NCBI GenBank assembly: GCA_038250675.1
Contig: JBBSCB010000012.1
Span: 8,165-72,164, forward strand
Source: Gemmatimonadales bacterium
GTDB taxonomy: Bacteria > Gemmatimonadota > Gemmatimonadetes > Gemmatimonadales > GWC2-71-9
Length of the DNA stretch: 64,000 bases
Direction: 5' to 3'
Shown here: positions 22,639 to 61,122 of the stretch, one piece after another
How positions within the stretch are numbered: position 1 is the stretch's first letter
Layout of the letters: each line of letters begins with the position of its first letter
The notes under the pieces: model-generated
Database searches by the model: none
Told to the model about the DNA's origin: nothing
The model's input: only the letters and a program-made list of their open reading frames with translations
Translations under genes and position numbers: made by a program

Positions 22639-25269
22639 ATGCCTGTGGCCGATCGCCTGGCCGAGCTTCGTGCCGGCCTTTCGACAACCTATGTCATCGA
22701 CCGCGAGCTCGGCCGGGGCGGCATGGCGACCGTCTACCTCGCGCGCGACCTGCGTCACGACCGGCCGGTGGCGCTCAAGGTGCTCCACCCCGAGCTGGCC
22801 ACCGCACTCGGCGGCGAACGGTTCCAGCGCGAGATCCGGCTTGCAGCCCGCTTCCAGCACCCGCATATCCTGACGGTCCACGATTCGGGCGAGACCGCGG
22901 GCCAGCTCTGGTTCACCATGCCGTATGTGGATGGCGAGTCGCTCCGCGAGCGGCTCAACCGTGAGCGGCAGCTCCCGGTGGCCGATGCGCTTCATATTGC
23001 GGGCGAGGTGGCGGACGCGCTCGACTACGCGCACCGGCAGGGCGTGGTGCATCGCGACATCAAGCCCGAAAACATCCTCCTGAGCGGCGCGCACGCGCTG
23101 GTGGCCGACTTCGGGATCGCGCGGGCACTGGCCGCGGTGGACGAGGAGCGCCTCACCGGCACCGGCATCGCGGTCGGCACCGCGGCGTATATGAGCCCGG
23201 AGCAGGCAGCCGGCGACCGCGCGCTCGACGGGCGGACCGATATCTACAGTCTGGCAACGGTCCTCTACGAGATGCTGGCGGGGCAGACGCCGTTCGCGGC
23301 GGCGACACCGCAGCAGTCCATCGGGCGCCGTTTCGTCGAGACGCCGCGGCCGCTCACCGAAACCCGCGAGTCGGTGTCGCCGGCGGTGGCGGACGCGGTG
23401 CACCGGGCGCTGGCCCGGACGCCGGCCGACCGGTTTGCCACCGCGGCCGAGTTTGCCCAGGCGTTTGGTGCCGGCGCGACGGCGACTCCCGCGCTCCCGG
23501 CGGCGGGCGCCCATGGCCGGCCGCCGGCACCTCGGCGCCTGCGGACGATCCTGATGGTCGCGGGACTCGCCGTGCTTATCGCGTTCGTGGTGCTGTTCGC
23601 CTGGCGCCGCTCGCGCACGGGCGTCACATCCAGCGGCCCGCACCTGCTCGCGGTGCTTCCCTTCGAGAACATCGGTGCGCCTGACGACCAGTATTTCACC
23701 GATGGCGTCACCGACGCCGTCCGCGGCAAGCTCACCGGTGTGCCCGGACTCCGCGTCACGGCCTCGGCCAGCTCGAACGGATACCGCGGCAGCACCAAAC
23801 CGCTGCGTGAGATTGCCCACGAGCTGGGCGTCACCTATCTGCTGGTGGGCAAGGTCCGCTGGGCGCGGCAACCTGACGGCACCAGCCGGGTGCAGGTCAG
23901 CCCCGAGCTGATCGAGGCGGGCACCGCTGCTTCGCTCTGGCAGCAGCCGTTCGACGCGACGCTCACCGACGTGTTCGAGGTGCAGTCCAGAATCGCGGGG
24001 GAGGTGGCCGGCGCGCTCGATCTGGCGCTGGGTGACAGCGCCCGGCAACAGCTCGCTCATCGGCCCACCGGCAACCTGGCCGCCTACGACGCCTACCTGC
24101 GCGGGGAACAGGCCTCGAACGGCGGCGCCGCCGGCGACCCCGCCTCGGTGAGCCGCGCGGCCGGCTACTACGAACAGGCAACGGCACTCGACCCCGGCTT
24201 CGCACTGGCGTGGGCACGACTCTCGGAGATGCACTCGTGGCTGTATGGCATCTTTGACCCCAAGGCGACGAGCCGCACCATGGCACAGCATGCCGCGGAG
24301 CGCGCCGTCGCGCTCGCGCCGGACGCCGCCGAAGGGCACGCGGCGACGGCGCTCTACTACCAGCTTGTCGTAAAGGATCCAGTGCGGGCGGCGGCCGCCG
24401 CCGCGACCGGACTGCGGCTCGCGCCGGAGGACGCGGCGCTGCTTACCGCGGACGCCTCCATTGAGGCCAGTCTCGGACAGTGGGATTCGGCGGTGGTTCA
24501 CCTGCGGAGTGCGGCCGCACTTGACCCGCGCTCGCCGCTGATCGCGCACCGGCTGGGCACGACGCTCCGGTGGATGCGGCGCTTTCCGGAGGCCGAGGCG
24601 GTGCTGGATCGAGGCCTGGAGCTGGCGCCGACCGATCTCATCATGCGGGTCGAGCGGATGATGGTCGAGCTCGGGCGGGGCGATTTGCCGGCGGCGCGGG
24701 CCATCCTCGGGCAGGTACCGCGCGAGGTAGATCCCACGGCGGTGGTAGCGTTCGTGGCGACCTGGTCGGATCTCTACTGGGTGCTCGACGAGGAGCAGCA
24801 GCAACTCCTGCTGCGGCTCCGGCCCAGTGCCTTCGAGAACGATGCGAACTGGGCCATCGTGCTGGCCCAGACGTACCATCTGCGCGGCGACTCGGCGCGA
24901 ACCCGGATCTACGCCGATTCCGCCCGGATCGCCTTTACCCGCCTGGCAGCGGTCGCACCACAGGACGCGCAGCAGCACCTCTTCCTCGGGCTGGCGCTGG
25001 CCATGCTCCACCGCAACGCCGAGGCGATCGCGGAAGGGGAACGCGGCGCGGCGCTGCTGCCGATCTCACGTGATGCGAACTACGGTGCCTACATGCAGCA
25101 CCAGCTGGTGCGCATCTACGTCCTCACCGGCAACACGAATGCGGCGCTGGACCGCCTCGAACCGCTGCTCCGGGTGCCGTATGACCTCACGCCGGCGTGG
25201 CTCCGGATCGACCCGCGATTCGACCCGCTCCGTGGAATCCCGCGGTTCGAGGCGCTTGTGGGGCGATAG
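22639..25269 (+). CDS. Ser/Thr protein kinase - TM - TolB-N/TPR (K0)
   Basis: GRGGMATVY, VALK, HRDIKPEN, DFG, YMSPEQ; LAVLPFENIG..DQYFTDG; TPR helices. Confidence 0.93.
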   Translation: MPVADRLAELRAGLSTTYVIDRELGRGGMATVYLARDLRHDRPVALKVLHPELATALGGERFQREIRLAARFQHPHILTVHDSGETAGQLWFTMPYVDGESLRERLNRERQLPVADALHIAGEVADALDYAHRQGVVHRDIKPENILLSGAHALVADFGIARALAAVDEERLTGTGIAVGTAAYMSPEQAAGDRALDGRTDIYSLATVLYEMLAGQTPFAAATPQQSIGRRFVETPRPLTETRESVSPAVADAVHRALARTPADRFATAAEFAQAFGAGATATPALPAAGAHGRPPAPRRLRTILMVAGLAVLIAFVVLFAWRRSRTGVTSSGPHLLAVLPFENIGAPDDQYFTDGVTDAVRGKLTGVPGLRVTASASSNGYRGSTKPLREIAHELGVTYLLVGKVRWARQPDGTSRVQVSPELIEAGTAASLWQQPFDATLTDVFEVQSRIAGEVAGALDLALGDSARQQLAHRPTGNLAAYDAYLRGEQASNGGAAGDPASVSRAAGYYEQATALDPGFALAWARLSEMHSWLYGIFDPKATSRTMAQHAAERAVALAPDAAEGHAATALYYQLVVKDPVRAAAAAATGLRLAPEDAALLTADASIEASLGQWDSAVVHLRSAAALDPRSPLIAHRLGTTLRWMRRFPEAEAVLDRGLELAPTDLIMRVERMMVELGRGDLPAARAILGQVPREVDPTAVVAFVATWSDLYWVLDEEQQQLLLRLRPSAFENDANWAIVLAQTYHLRGDSARTRIYADSARIAFTRLAAVAPQDAQQHLFLGLALAMLHRNAEAIAEGERGAALLPISRDANYGAYMQHQLVRIYVLTGNTNAALDRLEPLLRVPYDLTPAWLRIDPRFDPLRGIPRFEALVGR

Positions 25270-25279
25270 TAAGGACAGT

Positions 25280-25480
25280 TGGGGTCGTGTCGAGATCGGT
25301 GCGTCAGCTGGGCTCTGGCCCCTTCGCTTCGCTCAGGGTGACATTCGGGGTCGCGTTGGGATTGGTGCGTTAACCGCGGCTCTGGCCACTTCGCTTTGCT
25401 CGGGGCGACATCCGGAATGGCGTTGGAACTGGTGTGTCAACTGCGGCTCTGGTCCCCTCGCTTTGCTCGGGGCGACGTTC
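25280..25480. repeat. Three degenerate 67-bp tandem units, each ending in a reverse REP-like palindrome
   Basis: REP copies at 25317-25343, 25384-25410, 25451-25477; the sequence between copies is also homologous. Confidence 0.85.
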
Positions 25481-25556
25481 GAGTGTAGGTGAGCTCCGGT
25501 GTCGCTGGATCGGCATCGATCGAGGCCCAGACCTCGGAGCGACGGATGGACCCAGA

Positions 25557-26017
25557 TGTCACCCTGAGCGCAGCGAGGGGGCCGAGCCACCGCCGATGCC
25601 GAGTTCCAGACTCAGGTCCCGCCATTCCGGATTCGCCCCGTCCACCAGTCTCAGCTTGCGCCCGCGCCGATACCCCTTGAGGTGCTTCTCGCGCGTGATC
25701 GCCGCAGCCGCGTTCGGCGCGACTTCGACATAGACCAACCGGTCGACCCTTCGCGCCGACGCATAACCGGGTGTCGCGCCCGTGCGATGCTGCTGGAGTC
25801 GGACCGCAAGCCGGCTGGTCACGCCAACGTACAGTTGCCGCGATTCGTTGGACAGGATGTAGACGACGAATGTCTTGGGCACGCTCCAGACTCGCGTGGT
25901 GTGCGACGAGCGCTGGATCGGATTGTTGCGCGCCGGGTGAGAATTGTGCGGGCGGCGCGTGGCGCCGGCCCCGATTGTGGGGCGTGGGTCCGGCCCCCTC
26001 GCTTCGCTCAGGGTGAC
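25557..26017 (-). mobile_element. GIY-YIG gene bracketed by inverted REP-like repeats (element A)
   Basis: TGTCACCCTGAGCGCAGCGAGGGGGCC (25557-25583) and its inverse GGCCCCCTCGCTTCGCTCAGGGTGAC (25992-26017). Confidence 0.6.
25559..25882 (-). CDS. Small stand-alone GIY-YIG nuclease family protein (107 aa)
   Basis: GTG start; FVVYILSNESRQLYVGVT…RLQQH…LVYVE…AITREKHLKGYRRGRKLRLV…NPEWRDL. Confidence 0.88.
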   Translation of the reverse strand: MPKTFVVYILSNESRQLYVGVTSRLAVRLQQHRTGATPGYASARRVDRLVYVEVAPNAAAAITREKHLKGYRRGRKLRLVDGANPEWRDLSLELGIGGGSAPSLRSG

Positions 26018-26054
26018 GGGCGGTGAATCGAGACCGGTGCGGCGGGGTGGGTTT

Positions 26055-26196
26055 GGCCCCCTCGCTGCGCTCAGGGTGACCTCCTGGTGCAGGTGACGTC
26101 CAGTGTCCCCGACGTCTCTGGATCGGCATCGATCAGGCCCCGCGCATCGGAGCGACGGATAGACCCAAATGTCACCCTGAGCGCAGCGAGGGGGCC
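26055..26196. repeat. Divergent REP-like pair (REPIN-like)
   Basis: Reverse copy 26055-26080, forward copy 26170-26196; 26091-26198 is a near-direct repeat of 25487-25585. Confidence 0.85.
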
Positions 26197-26217
26197 GAAG
26201 CGCGGGCAGGCACGGCC

Positions 26218-26805
26218 TTATGTGTGCCGCCGCAGCTGCCCGATCCGCTGCCCCGCCGCCGAGTCGGCCACGAGCGTCGCAAACCGCTTGCGCCGGGTGG
26301 CGTCCTGCTTGGCGCTGAGCACCCACCAGGCCGCGGTGCGCTGATATCCCGGCGGCTGTGCCGAATGGAACGCCCACGCCGCCCGGTTCCGCTTGAACTC
26401 GCGCACCAGATCGTCCGGGAGCGCTGCCGCTTTCCGATCCTGCTCGTACGCATAGATCGCGGACTTCGCGGCGGTGCGCCGAGCATACGCCGCAAGCCCC
26501 GCCGGTGCCACCACCCCGTCGCGGATCAGCGCTTCGAGGCGCCGGATGTTCACCGCGCTCCAGATGCTCCCCTGGCGCCGGGGCGTGAAGCGGATGACGT
26601 AGCTCGTCTCGCCCAGCGATTTCCGAATGCCGTCGATCCACCCAAAGCAGAGCGCCTGATCCACCGACTCGGGCCAGGTGATGCTGGGATGGCCGTTGGC
26701 CTTCTTGTGGAACCCCACCCAGAGCTCGTTCTGCCGACCGTGGTTCCGCTCGAGCCACGCCCGCCAGCGTGCCGGCGTCGCAAAGAAGGTGGGCTCTCCG
26801 GTCAC
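26218..26805 (-). CDS. YdeI/OmpD-associated family protein
   Basis: WRAWLERNH, SITWPESVDQALCFGWIDG, RFTPRRQGSIWSAVN, SAKQDATRRKR. Confidence 0.88.
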   Translation of the reverse strand: MTGEPTFFATPARWRAWLERNHGRQNELWVGFHKKANGHPSITWPESVDQALCFGWIDGIRKSLGETSYVIRFTPRRQGSIWSAVNIRRLEALIRDGVVAPAGLAAYARRTAAKSAIYAYEQDRKAAALPDDLVREFKRNRAAWAFHSAQPPGYQRTAAWWVLSAKQDATRRKRFATLVADSAAGQRIGQLRRHT

Positions 26806-26809
26806 ACCA

Positions 26810-28477
26810 CTACTGGCGGCAGACGGCGTGGGGATCTCCCTTCGGCGCATCCAGTGCCGGCCGGTGATCGAGATTGGCGATCCGCAGCGCCGCGTCGTGC
26901 ACCATCGTCGACACCCGCGCCAGGTCGGCGTAGTCGATGTACTGCGCCTCGTCGGTCACCTGGTGGTAGTCCAGGTGCTCGCCCCGCGAGAACGCTACCG
27001 CCGGAATCGAGTAGCGCGCGTAGTTGTAGTGGTCCGCGCGACAGTAGTACTGCAGCGGATGGCCCGGCGCATCGAACTCGTAGTTGAAGACGAACGGTGT
27101 CGGCTGCGCCGCGTTGGCCGCTTCGAGAATGCCGCCGAACTCGCGCGACAGCCGCTTGGCACCCACCACCTCGAGATACGCCGGCCCGCCACCCGGCAGG
27201 TCCTCGGCCGTGCCCCGCCCTACCATGTCCTGATCGATCTCCGCCACGATCGAATCCCGCGGTACCGTCGGATGGTCGGTAAACCACGCCGAGCCCACCA
27301 GGCCATACTCCTCGCCGGTGTGCGAGACGAACAGGATCGAGCGCCGGATCTGGTTGCGCTCGTTCGCCATCCGCTCGGCGATCTCGAGGATCGACACCGT
27401 GCCGGTGCCATCGTCGTCGGCGCCGTTCCGGATCGAGTCGGCGCGCGCGGGACGGATCCGCCGCAGACTGTCAAGGATGTGCCGGATCCGCGGCGTCTCC
27501 TCGGCGGTGGCCGGCCGGTTGGGGCTGTCGGCGCCCATCGGCCGCACGACGCGGTCGAAGGCGCGGAGCGAGTCGTGGTCCACCGGCGCGTGATCGAACC
27601 CGACATGGTCGTTGTGCGCGGTGAGCGAGACATACTGATGCCGAAGCACCGGATCGTGACCCCGCAGCACGCCGACGACGTTGCGCGCGGCATAGGGCAG
27701 CACCATCACGGCAAAGCCCAGACTGCCGTCGATCGTCCGGCCGACGGTGCCCGGCGCGGTGCCGGCCACCGGCCGGCCCAGCATCGCCTCCGCAGCCGCC
27801 GGCGAAAGGAGAATGACGGGCGCCACCGGGCTCCGTACGGTGTCCACCGTGATCCGCCCCTCGCCGATCGCCGCCACCGTCTCCGGGCCGAGCAGGTCGA
27901 GCGCCTCGGCCGCGACCAGTGCGGCGCCGGCAAAGTGCCGGTTCCGGAGCCGGGCGCCGATGCCCCGCGTGGACCTGATGCCGTCGGGTCCCGGCGCAAT
28001 GCTCACGATTACGATGCGCCCGGCGAGCGATTCGGCTGGCGCCCACTGGGTGCTGTCGTTGATGGGCCCGCCGTAGACCGCCGTCAGGCCACTGAGATTG
28101 TGGTGCGAGACGGGCGCACCGCTCAGCAGGAAATCCCGCCCGCTCAGGAAGGTCCTGCCGCCGGCCACGATCCGGGTCGCGCTGTCCACCGCCACCCGGA
28201 AGAACGGCACCGTCTGGAACCAGCCGCCGTGCTCGCCGGCCGGCTCCAGACCCAGACGCCTGAACTCGGATGCGATATACTCGGCCGCCTGATAGTCGCC
28301 GATGCCGCCCGGCGCCCGGCCGCCCATCGAATCGTCGGCGATAAGATAGAGGCGGGTGCGGAGGTCGGCCGCGGTGATCGCGGGGTGGGTCCGGGTCGCC
28401 TGGGGTCGGGCCTGGGACGCGGCGCCCAGCGAGGCGAGCAGGACCAGCGCGATGCCACGGATCAGCGACTTCTGCAT
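26810..28477 (-). CDS. Secreted M28 family metallopeptidase
   Basis: Signal peptide; TAHNDH, GADDDGTG, HTGEEYGLVGS, DQDMVG, RADHY, DYHQVTD. Confidence 0.9.
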   Translation of the reverse strand: MQKSLIRGIALVLLASLGAASQARPQATRTHPAITAADLRTRLYLIADDSMGGRAPGGIGDYQAAEYIASEFRRLGLEPAGEHGGWFQTVPFFRVAVDSATRIVAGGRTFLSGRDFLLSGAPVSHHNLSGLTAVYGGPINDSTQWAPAESLAGRIVIVSIAPGPDGIRSTRGIGARLRNRHFAGAALVAAEALDLLGPETVAAIGEGRITVDTVRSPVAPVILLSPAAAEAMLGRPVAGTAPGTVGRTIDGSLGFAVMVLPYAARNVVGVLRGHDPVLRHQYVSLTAHNDHVGFDHAPVDHDSLRAFDRVVRPMGADSPNRPATAEETPRIRHILDSLRRIRPARADSIRNGADDDGTGTVSILEIAERMANERNQIRRSILFVSHTGEEYGLVGSAWFTDHPTVPRDSIVAEIDQDMVGRGTAEDLPGGGPAYLEVVGAKRLSREFGGILEAANAAQPTPFVFNYEFDAPGHPLQYYCRADHYNYARYSIPAVAFSRGEHLDYHQVTDEAQYIDYADLARVSTMVHDAALRIANLDHRPALDAPKGDPHAVCRQ

Positions 28478-28565
28478 GACAGCTCCTGGTGGGGGTGTGA
28501 CGCCGGCGGGCGAGGCGGAAACAATACCCGACGGATGAAGGCGCGGCCAGTGGGCCGGAGAGGGG

Positions 28566-28844
28566 GCGTGGGAAATCGAAATCGTCATCGGCGCAATGAA
28601 ACCGGAGCACCGCTTCTCGTTCCGCTGGCATCCGTACGCCATCGATCCCGCGGTGGACTACTCCAACGAACCGCGGACGCTCGTCGAGTTCACGCTCGAA
28701 GTGGCCGACGGCGGCACGCTGCTGACGGTGGTGGAGACCGGGTTCGACGCGATCCCGGCGGCGCGACGGGTCAAGGCGTTCGAGATGAATTCGAAGGGGT
28801 GGGCCGGGCAGATGAACAACATCCGGAAGTACGTCGAGGGCTGA
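28566..28844 (+). pseudogene. 5'-truncated SRPBCC/AHSA1-like gene
   Basis: Only the C-terminal half is present: RFSFRWHPYAIDP…TLVEFTLE…GTLLTVVETGFDAIP…GW; no room for the N-terminus before the divergent M28 gene. Confidence 0.7.
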
Positions 28845-28877
28845 CCGCACGGGGCGTCGGGGGCTGGGCGGTGTGTC

Positions 28878-28960
28878 GGCCCCCTCGCTGCGCTCGGGGT
28901 GACGTCGTGTCACAAACGGGTCGCACCAAACAAATGTCACCCTGACCGAAGCGAAGGGGC
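28878..28960. repeat. REP-like pair between convergent genes at the 3' end of the kinase array
   Basis: GGCCCCCTCGCTGCGCTCGGGGTGAC (28878-28903) and TGTCACCCTGACCGAAGCGAAGGGGC (28935-28960). Confidence 0.85.
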
Positions 28961-28980
28961 TGGTGCCCGCGGCTCGAGCG

Positions 28981-31656
28981 TCATCGCGGGGCCACGTCCG
29001 CCACCCAGATGTCCGCCTGATGTTCACCCGCCACGAAATAGAACCGCTTGCCATCGGTATCGGAGACGCCGCGGACCGTCCGCGCCTCGCCATGATCGAA
29101 GCTCACCACCTTGCGAAGCGCCCCGTTCCGGAGATCCACCGCCCAGTAGGCCGGGTCGCCGGTCGTGTCGCGGGAGAAGACGTACAGCGTCCGGCCGTCG
29201 GGCCCCATCCGGAGCCAGTTGGGCCGGAACCAGGGTGGAGGCTGGAAGAGACTCGCCGGTGCACCGCCGCCCGAGGGGATAGCGACAAACGCGTTGGTAC
29301 TGTCTTCGGTGACGCTGGCGTAGGCCAGGCGATCGTGGGTGACACCGCTCGTGATGCCCGAGCCGATTCGCGCTGGTTCCCCCCAGGGTGCAGAGCGCGA
29401 GGCCCGACGGATTTCCAGCAGGTCCGGGCTCGCTCCCTCTCCCCGGCTGAACGCGAGCGTGTTGTTGTCCGGTCCCCAGGCCGCGTACCAGTCGCTCAGC
29501 GTGTCGCGGGTGACCTGGGTCAGCCCGGTGCCGTCGGCGTTGATGACAAAGACATCCCGGTTGCCGGTGCGGAACGAGTGAAAGGCGATCTGGCTGCCGT
29601 CGGGAGACCAGTCGGCAGCGAGGTCGTCCGAAGGATCGTGCGTGAGCTGCCTCGGCGTGCCGCCCTCGGACGGCACGACGAAGAGATCGGCGTTGCCATT
29701 GAGGTCGGAGTCGTAGACCAGCCACTTGCCGTCCGGGGAGAGCCGCACCACTTCAGTGGCCTGGTTGCCCCGGGTGATCGGCACGGCGGAGCTGGCGCTA
29801 GCACTGCCTGTCGGAGGCAGCCGGACCATCCAGATGTTGAGATCGCGGCTGTACTTGGCATAGGCCAGGTGCTTCCCGTCCCGGGAGAGCGCGATGGTGT
29901 GCGCATCGAGCCCGGTGGTGATCCGGCGGGGGGCGCCGTCGGGCCGGCCGGCGCGGCCGATGGCCTGGCGATAGATGTCCCGGCCCCCACCACTGCTCGA
30001 GACGTAGAGCAGCCCGCTCCCATCGGGCAGCCAGACCGGCGAGACGTTGAGGGTGGTGGAGTCGCTCACCATGGTCGGCGCCCCGCCGGCGGCGGGGAGC
30101 ACGAAGACCGTGCTCGCGGCCAGGTTGCCGAACGAGCGCTGACCATACACGAAGTCCCGGTTGCCCCGTACCCCGGCCAGCCAGCGGCCGTCCGGCGACC
30201 ACGCCAGTGAGTGGACGGCACCGACCATTGCCAGCAGCGTCACCCCGCCGCCGTCGGCTCCCATGACCATGACGCTGTCACCCTGCTCGAAGGCGAGATG
30301 AGTTCCGTCAGGAGACCATTTGGGCGCGAGCGGGACACCGCCGTCATACGACGTGCGATAGAGCCGCCGGACATCGCCCCCGGTCGGAGGCATGACGGCG
30401 ATGCTGGCGCCGCCGGCCTCGTAGGAGACAAAGGCCAGCCGTCGGCCATCGGGTGACCAGTCCGGCGATGCCTGGGAGCCGGGCAGGCTGTCGGTGATGC
30501 TGATCGCGCGTCCCCCGTCGGTGGGTTGCAGGAAGATTTCCGCCCCGCCCGCGGCGTCCGCCACATAGGCCAGGAACTGGCCGTCAGGCGAGAGGGCGGG
30601 CAGCGTCTCCCTCCCCGGAGCGCTGGTGAGCCGGCTGGTCTTCGTCAGGCTCAGCTGCGTGGCGCCTGCGCCTCGCCGGGTCAGCAGCAGGATACCGCCC
30701 AGTGCGACGATCACGCCGAGTGCAATGAGGAGGCTTCGATTCCGTCCCACCGGTACCGATGGTGCCACGGCCGCGACGGGCATCGTGTGAGTCGGCGTCA
30801 TCCCGCCGCTCGGTGTCGCCAGCGGCTCCAGGTGCTGCAGCATCTCCTCGGCGGTCTGCCACCGGTCCGCCGGCCGCTTCTCCAGCGCCTTCATGATCAC
30901 GCCTGCCAGTGCCGGCGAGAGCGACGGCCGGTGGTTGGCCAGCGGCTCCGGCAGCTGCATCACGTGCGCCGCGAGGACCTGTTGCGGCGAGGCGCCGGTG
31001 AACGGGGGTCGACCCGCGAGCAGCTCGTACCCCATGACGCCGAGGGCGTAGATATCCACCCGGTGGTCGAGATGGGGATCCGCGCTCGCCTGTTCCGGCG
31101 CCATGTACGCCGGCGTCCCGAGGGCCACGCCGAGGGTGGTAAGCCGATTCTGCCCACTCGCTTCGTTTACGGCCTTGGCCACGCCGAAATCCATGACGAG
31201 GGCGTGGCGGCCGGAGAGCATGACGTTCTCCGGCTTGATGTCGCGATGCACCACGCCCCGGCTGTGCGCGTGACTCAGTGCGTCGGCGATCTCGATCAGC
31301 AGCCGCACCGCCTCGTGGACCGGGAGCTCGCCCTCCCGCGTGAGCCGCTCGCGCAGTGACTCGCCCTCCACGTACGGCATGACGTAGTAGAGAAACCCCT
31401 CGGCGCTGCCGGAATCGAAGACGCCGAGAATGTGCGGGTGCTGCAGCCGGGCCGCGATTTCGATCTCCTGGGTGAACCGGTCGGGACCGAGCGCCGCGGT
31501 GAGATCGGGGCGCAGCACCTTGATGGCCACCCGGCGGCGATGCTTCAGGTCCTCGGCGAGATAGACCGTCGCCATGCCGCCGGCGCCGAGTTCGCGCTCG
31601 ATGCGGTAGCGGTCGGCGAGTGACGCGGCGAGGCGCGTATCAGCGCCCATTCGCAT
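28981..31656 (-). CDS. Ser/Thr kinase - TM - TolB/PD40 beta-propeller (K1)
   Basis: GAGGMATVY, HRDIKPEN, DFG; many WSPDG repeats; start 31656 or 31650 overlaps the K2 stop. Confidence 0.93.
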   Translation of the reverse strand: MRMGADTRLAASLADRYRIERELGAGGMATVYLAEDLKHRRRVAIKVLRPDLTAALGPDRFTQEIEIAARLQHPHILGVFDSGSAEGFLYYVMPYVEGESLRERLTREGELPVHEAVRLLIEIADALSHAHSRGVVHRDIKPENVMLSGRHALVMDFGVAKAVNEASGQNRLTTLGVALGTPAYMAPEQASADPHLDHRVDIYALGVMGYELLAGRPPFTGASPQQVLAAHVMQLPEPLANHRPSLSPALAGVIMKALEKRPADRWQTAEEMLQHLEPLATPSGGMTPTHTMPVAAVAPSVPVGRNRSLLIALGVIVALGGILLLTRRGAGATQLSLTKTSRLTSAPGRETLPALSPDGQFLAYVADAAGGAEIFLQPTDGGRAISITDSLPGSQASPDWSPDGRRLAFVSYEAGGASIAVMPPTGGDVRRLYRTSYDGGVPLAPKWSPDGTHLAFEQGDSVMVMGADGGGVTLLAMVGAVHSLAWSPDGRWLAGVRGNRDFVYGQRSFGNLAASTVFVLPAAGGAPTMVSDSTTLNVSPVWLPDGSGLLYVSSSGGGRDIYRQAIGRAGRPDGAPRRITTGLDAHTIALSRDGKHLAYAKYSRDLNIWMVRLPPTGSASASSAVPITRGNQATEVVRLSPDGKWLVYDSDLNGNADLFVVPSEGGTPRQLTHDPSDDLAADWSPDGSQIAFHSFRTGNRDVFVINADGTGLTQVTRDTLSDWYAAWGPDNNTLAFSRGEGASPDLLEIRRASRSAPWGEPARIGSGITSGVTHDRLAYASVTEDSTNAFVAIPSGGGAPASLFQPPPWFRPNWLRMGPDGRTLYVFSRDTTGDPAYWAVDLRNGALRKVVSFDHGEARTVRGVSDTDGKRFYFVAGEHQADIWVADVAPR

Positions 31657-57822: not shown

Positions 57823-60509
57823 CGGGTTCCCCCCGCCCTGGTCTTCATCTTCGTGGCCAGGTCGGCGAGGAAGTTCTCGATGTAGACGGCTTCGGGAATC
57901 GGCCCGGCATCCGGCTCGCGGATCATCAGGAAGCGGCGGTCATCCGGGGCCACGTTGTACTGCGGCCGATTGTTCGCGGCAGCGTACCCATCCAGCGAGA
58001 AGAGCGGGCGCGGGATGCCCGGGCTGAAGGCCGCTCCGGGAGCCACCGGCACGCTGACCAGCTTGCCGCCGCTCTTGAAGAAGAGTTCCCGGCCGCTGTG
58101 CGCCCAGCGCGGCTCGGTCCCGCCGCCTTGCGAGACCTGCATGCGCACCTTCATGTCGGGAAAGGAACCGACATACACCTCCGAGGCACCCGAGATGTCG
58201 GAGGTGAACGCCAGCCATCGCGCGTCAGGAGAGAGGGCGATCTGGGTGGTGAAGCTGCCGTCATCGAGGATGGTGCGGAGCGTGGTGTCGCCCCGGAGCC
58301 GCCGGGCGAGGACGACGCCGTACGAGCCGGACTTGTCCCGACGGATGACCTGCCACTGGCCGTCCCGCGAGTATTCCGCCTCCCAGATCCCACCATCGAC
58401 GTGGAGCGTCCGCCGTGGGGGCGAACTGCCATCGGCGGGGCTCTCGTACAGATCATTTCCCGACCCCGCCGAGCCCGACTTCGCGACACCTAGCGTGGTC
58501 ACGAAGGAAAAGGCGCGTCCGTCCGGCGTCCATGCCGCCCGCCAGGTGCCATCGTCACCGACCGAGACCTTTCTCCGGGAGCCGTCGGCCCGGCGGATCC
58601 AGAGCTGGGTGAAGGCGCCTCGGACACTCACCGCCAGGGTACGGCCATCCGGGGCGAGCGCCGGATACTCGAACGCCGCCTGCCAATCGGCGGCAAATGG
58701 CTCCGTCGTACCGTCCCGAGCGACCCACACGAGTCGTGAGTCGTTCAGGTTGCGAGTGCCGACGGAGTACACGGCGTTCCCCGAGCGCGAAAGCGCAAAC
58801 CGTGACGGTGCCACACCCGAGATCACCGGGATGGCCCCCGAGGTGATCCGCATCCGGCCGAGATCGAACCCCGCCGCGTACAGGCCGCCGTCACGCGTGG
58901 TATACAGGAGGTAGCCGTTCGGGGCGTACCAGGCCCCGCTGGCGTTGTCCACCAGCAGCTGGGTGCTGTCGGTCCGGAAGTCGTAGGCATAGATCGCCGA
59001 CCCGCTGGCGCAGTTCCCGGGACAGCCGGTGAAGAGAACGCCGTGGCTGCCGGGAAGTGCGGCGAGCGCGGTCGGGTCGATCCGACCGCTGGAGGAGGGC
59101 TTCCGCGCGATGGAGGTGGGACCGCCATCGCCGGAGACTCGACGCAGCGAGTTGGTTTGGCCGACGTAGACGATGGTGTTGTCGTCCAGCCAGTCTCCAA
59201 CCAGGTAGGTGGCGTTGGCGCTGTCCGCCAGCGGCACCGTCCCGCCGCCTGACACCGGGACCTTCCGGAGCCGGCCGCCGGCATCGAAGTACGCGATCCA
59301 CTTGCCATCGGGCGAATAGAAGGGAGACATGGCGCCCTCGGTTCCGGCGATCGGCGTGGCGTCCACCTGATCGCGGAGCTTGAGCATCAGCTGCGACGTT
59401 GCACCGACCGAATCCGAGAAGACGATGCTCGAGCCGTCCGGTGCAATGGCAACCTGCGACTGCACCCGGGCGGTGCCCGGCGCCAGGAAGTCCCCCACGC
59501 CATGGTGCCACAACACCACCCGCTGGTAGGTCGGTCCCACGGCGGGCCTCGGCCTCGTCCACCCCCACAGGGCGGCGAGCGCCAGCAGGGCAGCCGCAAC
59601 CGGCCAGGCGAATCGCACCGGCGAGGGTGCCTTCGGCGGGCGGGGCGCCGCGCGAGTCGTTCTCCCGCTCGCGGCCGCCTCGCCGGCCAGCGCGGCGGCA
59701 AACTCCCTGGCCGTCGCATAGCGGTCAGCGGGCAGTTTCTCCAGTGCCCGAAGCACCGCGACCTCGACCGACTCCGGCACCGCCTTTCGCTGGATGCTGA
59801 TCGCCCGCGGTTCGTCGGTCACCAGCCGGGCGACGATGGCCTGCACACTCGGCCCCGTGAACGGCGGCTCACCCACCAGCATCTCGTAGGTCACGACGCC
59901 GAGGGCGTAGATGTCGCTCCGCGCGTCGATCGAGCGTTCACCCATGGCCTGCTCGGGACTCATGTACTGCGGTGTGCCCAGCGAGAGCCCGGTCTGGGTC
60001 ATCCGCGCGCCGGCGGCGGTCTGCACGGCGAGCGCGATGCCGAAATCCGCCACCAGCGCATGTCCGCCCTGCAGCAGGATGTTCTCCGGCTTGATGTCGC
60101 GGTGCACCACGCCGAGTCCGTGGGCGTATCCGAGGGCGTCGGCCACCTCCCGGGCAATAAGCACCGCGGCGTCGATAGGAAGCTGGCGCTCCCGCACGAG
60201 GCGGGCCCGGAGCGTCTCGCCGGTGACGAGCGGCATCACGTAGTAGAGCAGCCCGTCGGCCTCGCCGGAATCGAGCAACGGCAGGATGTGCGGGTGCTGG
60301 AGCCGGGCGGTGGTGCGGATCTCGGAGAGGAACCGTTCCCCGCCCAGGGCGGCGCCAAGGTCGGGGTGGAGGACCTTGATGGCGACGTCGCGATCGTGCT
60401 TGAGGTCGTGGGCCAGGTAGACGGTCGCCATCCCGCCCTGGCCCAGCTCACGCTCGATGCGATACCGGTCAGCCAGCGCCGCGGTGAGGCGGTTGGGCGT
60501 CGGAGGCAT
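57819..60509 (-). CDS. Ser/Thr kinase - TM - beta-propeller (K10)
   Basis: Kinase motifs intact; SPDG repeats; start ATG 60509 or GTG 60515. Confidence 0.93.
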   Translation of the reverse strand: MPPTPNRLTAALADRYRIERELGQGGMATVYLAHDLKHDRDVAIKVLHPDLGAALGGERFLSEIRTTARLQHPHILPLLDSGEADGLLYYVMPLVTGETLRARLVRERQLPIDAAVLIAREVADALGYAHGLGVVHRDIKPENILLQGGHALVADFGIALAVQTAAGARMTQTGLSLGTPQYMSPEQAMGERSIDARSDIYALGVVTYEMLVGEPPFTGPSVQAIVARLVTDEPRAISIQRKAVPESVEVAVLRALEKLPADRYATAREFAAALAGEAAASGRTTRAAPRPPKAPSPVRFAWPVAAALLALAALWGWTRPRPAVGPTYQRVVLWHHGVGDFLAPGTARVQSQVAIAPDGSSIVFSDSVGATSQLMLKLRDQVDATPIAGTEGAMSPFYSPDGKWIAYFDAGGRLRKVPVSGGGTVPLADSANATYLVGDWLDDNTIVYVGQTNSLRRVSGDGGPTSIARKPSSSGRIDPTALAALPGSHGVLFTGCPGNCASGSAIYAYDFRTDSTQLLVDNASGAWYAPNGYLLYTTRDGGLYAAGFDLGRMRITSGAIPVISGVAPSRFALSRSGNAVYSVGTRNLNDSRLVWVARDGTTEPFAADWQAAFEYPALAPDGRTLAVSVRGAFTQLWIRRADGSRRKVSVGDDGTWRAAWTPDGRAFSFVTTLGVAKSGSAGSGNDLYESPADGSSPPRRTLHVDGGIWEAEYSRDGQWQVIRRDKSGSYGVVLARRLRGDTTLRTILDDGSFTTQIALSPDARWLAFTSDISGASEVYVGSFPDMKVRMQVSQGGGTEPRWAHSGRELFFKSGGKLVSVPVAPGAAFSPGIPRPLFSLDGYAAANNRPQYNVAPDDRRFLMIREPDAGPIPEAVYIENFLADLATKMKTRAGGTR

Positions 60510-60578
60510 GGTCACCTGGTACGGGGATGTAGCTGGGACGTGGTAATTAAGGATAGGGGCAACGGAACGGACGGGGAA

Positions 60579-60683
60579 GGACGGCTGGGACGGCTGGGAC
60601 GGCTGGGACGGCTGGGACGGCTGGGACGGCTGGGACGGCTGGGACGGCTGGGACGGCTGGGACGGCTGGGACGGCTGGGACGG
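60579..60683 (+). repeat. Perfect 9-bp tandem repeat (GGACGGCTG), 11 copies plus a partial
   Basis: Read directly from the sequence. Confidence 0.97.
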
Positions 60684-60706
60684 ACGGTGCGTCGCAAGGC
60701 CACCAT

Positions 60707-61122
60707 TGTCATCCCGAGCGACCCTGAGCGCAGCGAAGGGGAGTCGAGGGATCTACTCCGCGTGAAATCGACACCAGTCTGAGGCGACGGCCTGCGGACT
60801 CCTCGGCGCGATGTTCGGGAATCGCTCGGCACTTCCACGTCTACATCTGAGCCAGCCGCGCGCAAACCTTCTACGTCGGCGTCACGGGCAATCTCCTGCG
60901 CCGGTTAGCCCAGCACCGAAACGGCTCATCGGAATTTACGGCCCGGTACCGGGTGGATCGCCTGGTGTACTACGACGAGACGGCGGACGCGCGGCAGAAG
61001 AACGTCCAGCTGATCGAGCGATCGAACGCCCGCTGGCTGGACCTCGCCCGGAATTGGTTCGGCCCTGTGCCTGAGTAGATCCCTCGACTCCCCTCGCTGC
61101 GCTCGGGTCGCTCGGGATGACA
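60707..61122 (+). mobile_element. TIR-bounded GIY-YIG element, decayed (element B)
   Basis: ~50-bp near-perfect inverted repeats at 60707-60758 and 61073-61122, differing by two 1-nt indels, enclosing a GIY-YIG pseudogene. Confidence 0.75.
60821..61078 (+). pseudogene. GIY-YIG nuclease pseudogene
   Basis: IARHFHVYI*ASRAQTFYVGVTGNLLRRLAQH…FTARYRVDRLVYYDE…NARWLDL; no ATG (ATC), TGA at 60848-60850, AIxREKxxKGW segment deleted. Confidence 0.85.

What the first reader, a model, noticed from the sequence alone, without database searches (positions are those of the whole stretch)
25557..26017. Candidate REP-mobilising element with a GIY-YIG nuclease instead of a RAYT transposase
Seen: an intact 107-aa GIY-YIG gene lies between inward-facing copies of a 27-bp palindrome (TGTCACCCTGAGCGCAGCGAGGGGGCC), and its stop codon is supplied by the repeat. 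Seven copies cluster within 900 bp. A second, independent locus (60707-61122) has the same layout, again with the stop inside the repeat. Known: GTAG-type REPs are associated with HUH/Y1 RAYT transposases flanked by their REPs. Inference: this GTCA-tagged family may instead be recognised and spread by a small GIY-YIG nuclease, as a minimal ~420-460-bp autonomous unit with non-autonomous REP/REPIN derivatives. No transposase is present in the window.
Basis: partly seen in the sequence, partly recalled or inferred. Interest (0 to 1): 0.85.

Follow-up and report, generated by a model that had tools for sequence, protein, structure and literature searches.

The report
Ssn-type nuclease gene with hairpin repeats
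A small GIY-YIG nuclease gene sits between inverted copies of its own hairpin repeat, which is real and non-random but belongs to the Ssn nuclease/repeat system published in 2025, so it is a new member rather than a new kind of element.

Summary
An intact 107-aa GIY-YIG gene (25559-25882, minus strand) lies between inward-facing copies of a GTCA-tagged hairpin repeat, and the repeat supplies its stop codon. Seven copies lie within 880 bp. The second locus (60707-61122) has the same layout, but its gene is dead and its repeat is a different, composite hairpin.

The association is general. In 54 of 78 homologous loci from many phyla the gene is flanked by inverted repeats, against 1 of 286 shifted controls. 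The hairpin stem shows compensatory changes, and hairpin type follows the nuclease tree. RAYT transposases in this genome and its relatives carry different repeats.

The system is already published. Chenal et al. 2025 (Nat Commun 16:2388) described the Ssn family: small GIY-YIG enzymes that cut only single-stranded DNA, bind a (C)GTC-tagged hairpin repeat flanking their own gene, and cut just upstream of it. The repeats match the "CGTC-tagged REPs" of Di Nocera et al. 2013.

What is new here:
- a Gemmatimonadota-type member;
- a hairpin class that the published search motif misses;
- comparative hints of gain, loss and deletion derivatives.

That the nuclease spreads the repeats remains unproven.

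The parts
25559..25882 (-). Intact 107-aa single-domain GIY-YIG (Ssn-like) gene, type A. The GTG start is assumed.
   Evidence: ORF. Pfam PF01541 at E 1.8e-12. Catalytic Y8, Y18 and E65 are conserved. It is 47% identical (E 3e-24) to a Sphingomonas homologue flanked by NTS-like repeats.
25557..25583 (+). Hairpin repeat (SRM/CGTC-REP type, TGTCACCC...) at the 3' end of the gene. It carries the stop codon.
   Evidence: inverted pair I3 with 25981-26017
25992..26018 (-). Hairpin repeat upstream of the gene; the partner arm of 25557-25583. The unit 25557-26018 is 462 bp.
   Evidence: Units of this kind have a median span of 460 bp in 54 other loci.
26055..26081 (-). Second upstream copy of the hairpin repeat.
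   Evidence: 1 mismatch
26170..26196 (+). Further copy, inside the 90-nt direct repeat 26109-26198 that duplicates 25496-25585.
   Evidence: D3, 87%
25311..25503 (-). Three tandem 67-nt units, each holding one hairpin repeat. The cores lie at 25320-25338, 25387-25405 and 25454-25472; the last two are degenerate.
   Evidence: D1, D2
28878..28961 (.). Back-to-back pair of the same repeat: a - copy at 28878-28904 and a + copy with its core at 28940-28958.
60707..60758 (+). Left arm of the type-B unit: a composite hairpin, GTCATCCCGAGCG[ACCCTGAGCGCAGCGAAGGGG]AGTCGAGGGATC plus TACTC.
   Evidence: Homology to the copy on contig C42 begins exactly here.
60821..61078 (+). Type-B GIY-YIG pseudogene. 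The start is lost, there is an in-frame TGA, and a 42-bp deletion removes the REK catalytic segment.
   Evidence: (1 TGA)
61073..61122 (-). Right arm of the type-B unit. It contains the TAG stop.

Best explanation
The locus is a member of the published Ssn system: a small single-domain GIY-YIG nuclease gene flanked by inverted copies of its own recognition hairpin. These hairpins are the Ssn-related motifs of Chenal et al. 2025, which correspond to the CGTC-tagged REPs of Di Nocera et al. 2013.

By homology, the 107-aa protein should bind the repeat only when the DNA is single-stranded and folded. The repeat has the form 5'-(T/C)GTC, interrupted stem-loop, then C. The protein should cut that strand a few nucleotides 5' of the GTC tag, which falls just outside the 462-bp unit on each strand. 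The other ~20 copies in the genome, several arranged as REPIN-like doublets, are further sites for the same enzyme.

Shown here:
- the anatomy;
- the non-random association of gene and repeat across phyla;
- base-pair covariation in the hairpin;
- co-variation of nuclease and hairpin;
- independence from RAYT.

Taken from the paper, for homologues only: cleavage restricted to ssDNA, and the roles of the GTC tag and the closing C.

Inferred: that this protein has the same activity, and that it is linked to the spread and turnover of the repeats.
For: Anatomy and chance.

This genome:
- It has 5 GIY-YIG matches: type A, two type B, one unflanked UPF0213-like copy, and UvrC.
- It holds 20 copies of the repeat pattern, against 0 for the reversed-pattern control.
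- Two type-B copies on different contigs are 86-88% identical, and their homology starts and ends at the outer GTCAT/ATGAC.
- There is a type-B deletion derivative and a solo end on contig C31.
- There are type-A REPIN doublets on C31, C58 and C3.

Across phyla:
- Inverted-repeat score >=14 in 54/78 loci against 1/286 shifted controls.
- The canonical GTC + stem + C site lies upstream in 53/93 loci and downstream in 66/93, against 18/618 control regions.
- Of the 54 arms, 37 contain the GTC word, 28 of them within 3 nt of the outer end.

Hairpin covariation: 57 distinct hairpins are 96.2% paired against 84.4% when shuffled. There are 70 double-change cells against 21.7, and 5 of 7 pairs are compensatory; slid controls give 13-53%.

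Co-variation with the nuclease:
- Hairpin class changes 31 times on the nuclease tree, against a mean of 51.0 (minimum 45) in 300 shuffles.
- In a nuclease clade of 9 rows spanning Bacteroidota, Pseudomonadota, Gemmatimonadota and a CPR genome, all 8 rows with a detected hairpin share the ATTGC stem.
- One Sphingomonas genome has 8 such genes. Most carry their own GTC-tagged hairpin pair; two (L150, L153) lack the GTC tag. That genome holds 409 + 81 dispersed repeats.
- Its REPIN doublets have the same ATGCT/ACCCT asymmetry as the ends of the matching gene unit.

Published mechanism and architecture: PMC11893778, abstract and sections 7, 8, 10, 12 and 17 read.

Homology: 47% identity (E 3e-24) to a homologue whose flanking repeat matches the published SRM search pattern and resembles the NTS consensus.
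Against: - Membership in cd10448 and homology to the N. meningitidis enzyme could not be tested directly.
- The published SRM search pattern finds 0 sites in the window. In the genome it finds 32, which is chance level (28-39 in five simulations). The hairpin here is therefore a variant outside that definition.
- Folding energy of the window's hairpin is no better than shuffles.
- Copy number is low (about 20) compared with hundreds in the published cases.
- Three relatives (G022, G024, G007) hold 20, 13 and 11 repeats but no gene of this class, so the repeats can persist without it.
- No activity was measured for this protein.
Confidence: 0.8

Rival explanations
1. This is the first reader's model: an autonomous IS-like element. 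The GIY-YIG nuclease would act as the mobilising enzyme of its own 420-460-bp inverted-repeat-bounded unit and, in trans, of the non-autonomous REP/REPIN copies.
For: - The unit is bounded exactly by the inverted repeats in two diverged copies in one genome.
- Internally deleted, MITE-like derivatives keep both ends. One is at contig C31:28996-29120; another lies next to the full element in L119.
- REPIN doublets share the asymmetry of the element's ends.
- Distribution is patchy and multi-copy: 1-6 matches per genome, and 70 of 201 genomes in the phylum sample have a match.
- One Bradyrhizobium intergenic site is empty, holds a REPIN only, or holds the gene in either orientation.
- Chenal et al. 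themselves note the IS-like architecture (section 12).
Against: - GIY-YIG enzymes hydrolyse DNA and form no covalent intermediate (established knowledge), so strand transfer would need host functions.
- The published enzyme cuts only the GTC-first strand, which gives one cut per strand per unit.
- At the Bradyrhizobium site, gene identity falls in step with flank identity (90.6/95.0, 84.2/92.8, 78.3/89.2, 76.9/87.1 and 76.1/84.1%). This fits one old insertion followed by losses and an inversion better than repeated insertion.
- Two Sphingomonas species hold the gene at the same site.
- No near-identical copies were seen (86-88% in G000, <=75% in the Sphingomonas genome).
- No empty allele appeared in two metagenome runs.
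Confidence: 0.35
2. This is a domesticated host system. The nuclease and its dispersed sites would serve the cell, for example by restricting or trimming incoming or replicative single-stranded DNA near marked genes. In Neisseria the system modulates natural transformation.
For: - That function has been shown for the N. meningitidis homologue (abstract and section 12).
- The gene persists at a syntenic site across Bradyrhizobium species with an intact frame in most. It was found in 6 of 13 other loci, 1 of them frameshifted.
- Each lineage is single-copy, with many dispersed sites.
Against: - One of the two lineages in this genome is dead, and its repeats are few.
- Presence among close relatives is patchy.
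- Nothing is known about competence in this organism.
- No enrichment around particular genes was tested here.
Confidence: 0.3
3. The repeats belong to a RAYT or another transposase, or are simply terminator-like hairpins, and the GIY-YIG genes sit among them by chance.
For: - One Y1 transposase exists in the genome.
- The repeats lie in intergenic regions and at the 3' ends of genes.
Against: - The RAYT on contig C31 is flanked by different repeats, found at only about 4 loci.
- Seven RAYT loci in four relatives carry 0 GTCA-type motifs.
- Flanking by inverted repeats is 54/78 against 1/286.
- No T-run terminator was predicted in 25200-26300.
- Di Nocera et al. also found no transposase linked to CGTC repeats (passages).
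Confidence: 0.03

Closest known systems
Ssn family of site-specific ssDNA endonucleases (cd10448, GIY-YIG_unchar_3) with NTS/SRM hairpin repeats; Chenal et al., Nat Commun 2025;16:2388 (PMC11893778)
   Same: - A small single-domain GIY-YIG protein (94 aa there, 107 aa here) with the Tyr/Tyr/Glu catalytic residues.
- The gene is flanked on both sides by inverted hairpin repeats carrying a 5' (C/T)GTC tag and a C after the stem.
- The same repeat is dispersed in the genome.
- Each nuclease lineage has its own hairpin.
   Different: - The hairpin here has an interrupted stem (tandem G.A and a GNA mini-loop, GAGCGNAGCGA) and is missed by the published SRM search pattern (0 hits in the window).
- There are about 20 copies rather than hundreds.
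- The host comes from a lineage whose search for related loci relatives are labelled Gemmatimonadota. That phylum is not mentioned in the paper's main text; the supplements were not seen.
- No biochemistry exists for this member.
CGTC-tagged REP superfamily; Di Nocera, De Gregorio, Rocco, BMC Genomics 2013;14:522 (PMC3733652)
   Same: - Short palindromic repeats with an unpaired (C)GTC tag at one end.
- They often occur as inverted dimers.
- They are present in Bradyrhizobium and other Alphaproteobacteria, as in the loci examined here.
   Different: - That paper reports that these repeats 'apparently lack a dedicated transposase'.
- It does not mention GIY-YIG; a search for GIY-YIG together with 'repetitive extragenic palindromic' returned 0 papers.
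- Its four families were not compared base by base with the window's repeat.
RAYT/REP/REPIN systems (Nunvar et al. 2010; Bertels and Rainey 2011; both recalled and seen only as citations)
   Same: - One resident gene is flanked by its own tagged hairpin repeats.
- There are many dispersed singlets and inverted doublets.
- Several gene/repeat lineages occur per genome.
- Recognition is of a folded single strand.
   Different: - The enzyme there is an HUH Y1 transposase with a covalent intermediate and a GTAG tag. Here it is a GIY-YIG hydrolase with a GTC tag.
- The RAYT of this genome has separate repeats.
UPF0213/YhbQ-like bacterial GIY-YIG proteins (PDB 1zg2, 1ywl) and eukaryotic SLX1
   Same: They are the nearest solved structures by sequence: 1zg2 at E 5.6e-10 and 1ywl at E 6.1e-06, with SLX1 weak at E 0.022. 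They share the minimal GIY-YIG fold.
   Different: - They form a separate clade (SH-aLRT 99).
- The UPF0213-like copies in this genome and its relatives are not flanked by these repeats (inverted-repeat scores 7-10).

Membership tests
Ssn (cd10448) nuclease with SRM repeats | Single-domain GIY-YIG protein of about 90-150 aa | tested here: met
   The protein is 107 aa. The only Pfam family is PF01541, covering residues 6-73. No NCBIfam model matches.
Ssn (cd10448) nuclease with SRM repeats | Catalytic Tyr, Tyr and Glu (Y6, Y17, E64 in the N. meningitidis enzyme) | tested here: met
   Y8, Y18 and E65 are invariant in 12 sequences.
Ssn (cd10448) nuclease with SRM repeats | CDD assignment to cd10448, or blast E < 1e-10 to N. 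meningitidis SsnA | not testable with these tools
   No CDD and no Neisseria sequence are held. The indirect evidence is 47% identity (E 3e-24) to a Sphingomonas homologue whose flanking repeats hit the published SRM pattern. The protein also falls in one clade with such homologues, split from the UPF0213-like class at SH-aLRT 99.
Ssn (cd10448) nuclease with SRM repeats | Gene flanked 5' and 3' by inverted hairpin repeats with a GTC tag upstream of the stem and a C after it | tested here: met
   for the window; 54/78 relatives against 1/286 controls.
Ssn (cd10448) nuclease with SRM repeats | Repeats fit the published degenerate SRM search sequence | tested here: not met
   There are 0 hits in the window. 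The genome has 32 hits against 28-39 in five Markov simulations. Only 10 of 95 homologous loci have a hit within 500 bp. The pattern was copied from the paper's Methods text.
Ssn (cd10448) nuclease with SRM repeats | Binds and cuts only ssDNA, a few nucleotides 5' of the motif | not testable with these tools
   This needs a biochemical assay. It has been shown for four homologues in the paper.
RAYT/REP (REPtron) | An HUH Y1 transposase gene flanked by the repeat family, with a GTAG tag | tested here: not met
   The only Y1_Tnp gene (contig C31) has other repeats. Seven RAYT loci in relatives carry 0 GTCA-type motifs. The tag here is GTC(A), not GTAG.
CGTC-tagged REP superfamily | A short palindrome with an unpaired CGTC-like tag at one end, often in inverted dimers | tested here: met
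   The tags are TGTC, CGTC or GGTC. Inverted doublets occur on contigs C31, C58 and C3. Assignment to one of the paper's four families was not attempted.
Autonomous insertion sequence | Several near-identical copies with target-site duplications, and an enzyme capable of strand transfer | tested here: not met
   The copies are 86-88% or <=75% identical. No formal search for target duplications was made. GIY-YIG chemistry is hydrolytic (established knowledge).

The most novel reading that the evidence does not exclude
Ssn-type GIY-YIG nucleases may be the long-missing enzyme behind the whole CGTC-tagged REP superfamily. In this reading they work as a RAYT-like REPIN system: single-strand cuts next to the hairpins, followed by host repair or annealing, generate, delete and occasionally copy the repeats and the gene unit. 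The system would reach well beyond Pseudomonadati, with hairpin classes (tandem G.A type) that current search motifs miss. The 2013 paper left the enzyme open. The 2025 paper raises the IS analogy but does not cite the CGTC-REP work or mention REPINs.
Probability: 0.4. Interest if true: 0.65.

Novelty: new member of a known kind. Interest (0 to 1): 0.4.

Why it matters
As found, the locus adds a member of the Ssn nuclease/repeat system from a poorly studied phylum. Its recognition hairpin falls outside the published search motif.

This has a practical side. The family is being developed as programmable single-strand DNA cutters, and each new nuclease/hairpin pair is a new specificity.

It also links two literatures that do not cite each other: CGTC-tagged REPs "without a transposase" (2013) and Ssn nucleases (2025).

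The comparative data gathered here make the open question directly testable, namely whether the nuclease drives repeat spread. Those data are deletion derivatives, REPIN doublets that mirror the ends of the gene unit, and one intergenic site that is empty, REPIN-only or gene-bearing in related species.

Tried and rejected
- **RNA and protein family libraries.** Rfam gave no match in 25000-29500 at E <= 1. NCBIfam gave no family for four proteins.
- **Folding energy.** The window's hairpins are not more stable than shuffles (z +0.38, +0.10, -0.18; the composite arms +0.67 and +1.24). Only the alphaproteobacterial hairpins are (z -3.73 and -2.24). Structure therefore rests on covariation, not on energy.
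- **Promoters and terminators.** No promoter-like site lies between the upstream repeat and the start codon, and no T-run terminator was found.
- **Empty-site test in reads.** Two runs of one study were laid. X1 may be the source sample. X2 holds only short identical pieces. No contig bridges an empty site, and the listed joints come from other repeat copies. This says nothing either way.
- **Empty-site test in the same genus.** The neighbouring YdeI-like gene has relatives in 5 of 5 genomes (55-59% identity at best), but neither the kinase, the M28 peptidase nor the GIY gene is found in the five fetched loci, which reach about 1.5 kb to each side of it. No comparison was possible.
- **Failed pattern.** A first fixed-length pattern for the Sphingomonas and Bradyrhizobium genomes was badly designed and found almost nothing. 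Searches replaced it.
- **Loose hairpin criterion.** A generic 'GTC + 5-bp stem' test was too permissive: 85 of 93 loci against 128 of 309 controls had a site on at least one side. The stricter test replaced it.
- **Literature.** Seven searches found nothing relevant. A search for six 13-mers of the repeat found only an unrelated cell-biology paper. The CGTC-REP paper came up and the decisive paper (GIY-YIG + 'extragenic'). Supplementary files of PMC11893778 (Data 3-5, lists of homologues and SRM counts) could not be seen. They may already list genomes of this phylum or this hairpin type.
- **RAYT as the enzyme.** Considered and rejected.
- **Unused tools.** Structure prediction, complex prediction, the search for homologous proteins, the search of protein representatives and the protein-atlas search were not used. 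The paper reports a monomer, and these tools could not have changed the verdict.
- **Unpublished genomes.** G019, G079 and G198 and G240 are counted in those tallies. L010 (G019) is one background-level row. L129 (G240) is one of the six Bradyrhizobium loci with the gene.
Full report
**1. Observation**

- An ORF of 107 aa on the minus strand (25559-25882) matches Pfam GIY-YIG at E 1.8e-12.
- The 27-mer has 6 matches at up to 3 mismatches where shuffles give none. A 19-nt core pattern has 13 matches against 0.41 expected. Seven of these lie between 25317 and 26196.
- The gene lies between a + copy (25557-25583) and a - copy (25992-26018), so the GTCA tags face outward.
- The stop TGA is the complement of the tag's TCA.
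- The cluster also holds three tandem 67-nt units and a 90-nt direct repeat spaced 613 bp apart.

The second locus (60707-61122) is bounded by a 50-52-nt inverted repeat that contains the TAG stop. Its gene is dead, however. Relative to the intact copy on contig C42, the start codon is lost, there is an in-frame TGA, and a 42-bp deletion removes the catalytic segment. Its repeat is a composite, with a type-A-like hairpin nested in a second hairpin.

**2. The genome**

The window lies on contig C12 of a 3.2-Mb, 69% G+C assembly.

GIY-YIG matches number five:
- the focal gene (type A);
- two type-B copies;
- an unflanked UPF0213-like copy;
- UvrC.

Other features of the genome:
- The two type-B copies are 86-88% identical. 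Their homology begins at TGTCATCCC and ends at GGGATGAC, so the inverted repeats delimit a discrete unit of about 460 bp.
- A type-B internally deleted derivative and a solo end lie on contig C31.
- Type-A repeats number 16 by a strict pattern. A looser pattern gives 20, with 0 for the reversed control.
- Several type-A repeats form inverted doublets with a shared interior.
- The single Y1 transposase is flanked by unrelated repeats present at about four loci.

**3. Relatives**

With the focal protein, 17 of 41 related genomes match. The split is 16 of 24 in the same family and 0 of 16 in two sister families. The best identity is 56%.
- Of the 15 strongest hits, 9 have a flanking inverted repeat scoring >=14.
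- Of the 15 weaker hits, only the window's own pseudogene does.

Two classes separate on a tree with SH-aLRT 99: this class and a UPF0213-like class.

A scan of species-representative genomes found 589 relatives among 600 candidate stretches. The best 80 come from many phyla, including Acidobacteriota, Chloroflexota, Pseudomonadota, Cyanobacteriota and Verrucomicrobiota.

Flanking repeats in this sample:
- Inverted repeats scoring >=14 occur in 54 of 78 analysable loci, against 1 of 286 shifted windows.
- The median span is 460 bp.
- Of the 54 arms, 37 contain GTC(A/G)(T/C), 28 of them within 3 nt of the outer end.
- A canonical site (tag, >=5-bp stem starting at the fourth base, then C) is present upstream in 53 of 93 loci and downstream in 66 of 93, against 18 of 618 control regions.

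**4. Structure and co-variation**

Fifty-seven distinct 27-nt hairpins were chosen by a pattern that left the variable stem positions free. Their statistics:
- 96.2% paired, against 84.4% in shuffles;
- 70 double-change cells, against 21.7;
- compensatory changes at 5 of 7 pairs;
- slid controls at 13-53%.

Hairpin class is clustered on the nuclease tree: 31 changes against a mean of 51.0 and a minimum of 45 in 300 shuffles. In one nuclease clade of 9 rows spanning Bacteroidota, Pseudomonadota, Gemmatimonadota and a CPR genome, all 8 rows with a detected hairpin share the ATTGC stem.

One Sphingomonas genome shows the pattern within a single host:
- It carries eight such genes. Most have their own GTC-tagged hairpin pair, though two lack the tag, and the genes are <=75% identical to each other.
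- It holds 409 and 81 dispersed copies of two hairpin classes.
- The doublets of the second class pair an ATGCT arm with an ACCCT arm, exactly as the ends of the matching gene unit do.

**5. Gain and loss**

One Bradyrhizobium intergenic site was compared in 14 fetched loci out of 61 genomes searched.
- It is empty or nearly so (47-209 bp) in five.
- It holds a REPIN only in one.
- In the query genome it holds the gene unit next to an internally deleted derivative.
- It holds the gene in six of the other 13 genomes. One of these is frameshifted and one is in the opposite orientation.

Gene identity to the query falls in step with flank identity. That favours one old insertion followed by losses and an inversion, rather than repeated insertion. 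Two Sphingomonas species also share a site.

Against a strict dependence of the repeats on the gene, three relatives hold 20, 13 and 11 repeats without a gene of this class. RAYT loci in relatives carry other repeats.

**6. What is known**

Early literature searches found nothing. Two papers then settled the matter.

Di Nocera et al. 2013 (passages read) defined CGTC-tagged REPs and stated that they apparently lack a dedicated transposase.

Chenal et al. 2025 (abstract and sections 7, 8, 10, 12 and 17 read) described the Ssn family (cd10448). Its main points are:
- The N. meningitidis enzyme is 94 aa. It binds the hairpin repeat NTS only as ssDNA and cuts a few nucleotides upstream.
- The three bases before the stem matter for cleavage, and the C after the stem matters for binding.
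- 71% of homologues have a related motif nearby, and 42% have one on both sides.
- Four homologues each cut their own motif.
- The authors note that the NTS-ssnA-NTS architecture looks like an insertion sequence, and they propose domestication.

Their main text does not mention the 2013 paper, REPINs, Gemmatimonadota or Acidobacteriota. The supplements were not available.

**7. Membership**

The window's protein meets these criteria:
- single-domain and of the right size;
- catalytic residues conserved;
- flanking tagged hairpins on both sides.

It is also 47% identical to a Sphingomonas homologue whose repeats hit the published motif.

Direct assignment to cd10448 could not be tested. The published degenerate motif does not find the window's repeats: 0 hits in the window, and chance level in the genome. 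The hairpin, with its tandem G.A pairs and GNA mini-loop, is therefore a variant outside that definition. The stability of GNA mini-hairpins is recalled knowledge, not a tool result.

**8. Verdict**

The claim that the nuclease spreads the repeats remains a hypothesis. The deletion derivatives, the mirror-image REPINs and the variable site give it some comparative support. The syntenic persistence of the gene, the old copies and the gene-less repeat-bearing genomes count against a simple IS model.

Noticed in passing
window 60571-60690; G000 contig C42 on both sides of the type-B unit; L018, L008, L020, L026; L138, L142 and L144 next to RAYT genes: Long tandem arrays of 7-9-nt units lie directly beside the nuclease units and beside RAYT genes in this bacterial family. 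Examples are GGACGGCTG here, GGGACGG on C42 and TTGGCTA in G022. On C42 they flank the unit in inverted orientation. They may be a general feature of intergenic DNA in these genomes or a preferred landing zone.
   Followed up: no
G000 contig C31:24397-24738 (outside the window): A RAYT-like Y1 transposase is flanked by its own, different palindromic repeats (GGCGGCTGAAGCCGCC and GGGCCCTGAAGGGCC types), present at only about four loci. Two independent gene-plus-hairpin systems therefore coexist in one genome.
   Followed up: partly
L154 (Sphingomonas genome G221, contig C8:121117-122574): A GIY-YIG gene that scored far below the other eight copies in that genome (70 bits against 96-112) is also flanked by an inverted palindromic repeat, but with a different head (GTTCGCCCTGAGCTTGTCGAAGGGC). 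It was not placed on the tree. A second GIY-YIG subfamily may have its own repeat family.
   Followed up: no
window 22639-25269 and about 60400-60520; G000 contig C42 about 19500 onward: All three nuclease units in this genome lie next to Ser/Thr protein kinase genes. The two type-B copies lie beside the 5' ends of paralogous kinases, about 77% identical at the DNA level.
   Followed up: no
G022 contigs C1 and C8: A 98%-complete relative has 20 repeats, 16 of them exact matches to the pattern, clustered in two regions. It has no gene of this nuclease class. Either the repeats outlive the gene or something else maintains them.
   Followed up: partly
L120 (Bradyrhizobium genome G231): The nuclease gene at the shared intergenic site is split into two reading frames, a probable frameshift. 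It sits in a tandem array of four repeat-bounded units whose spacers duplicate the ends of both flanks.
   Followed up: partly
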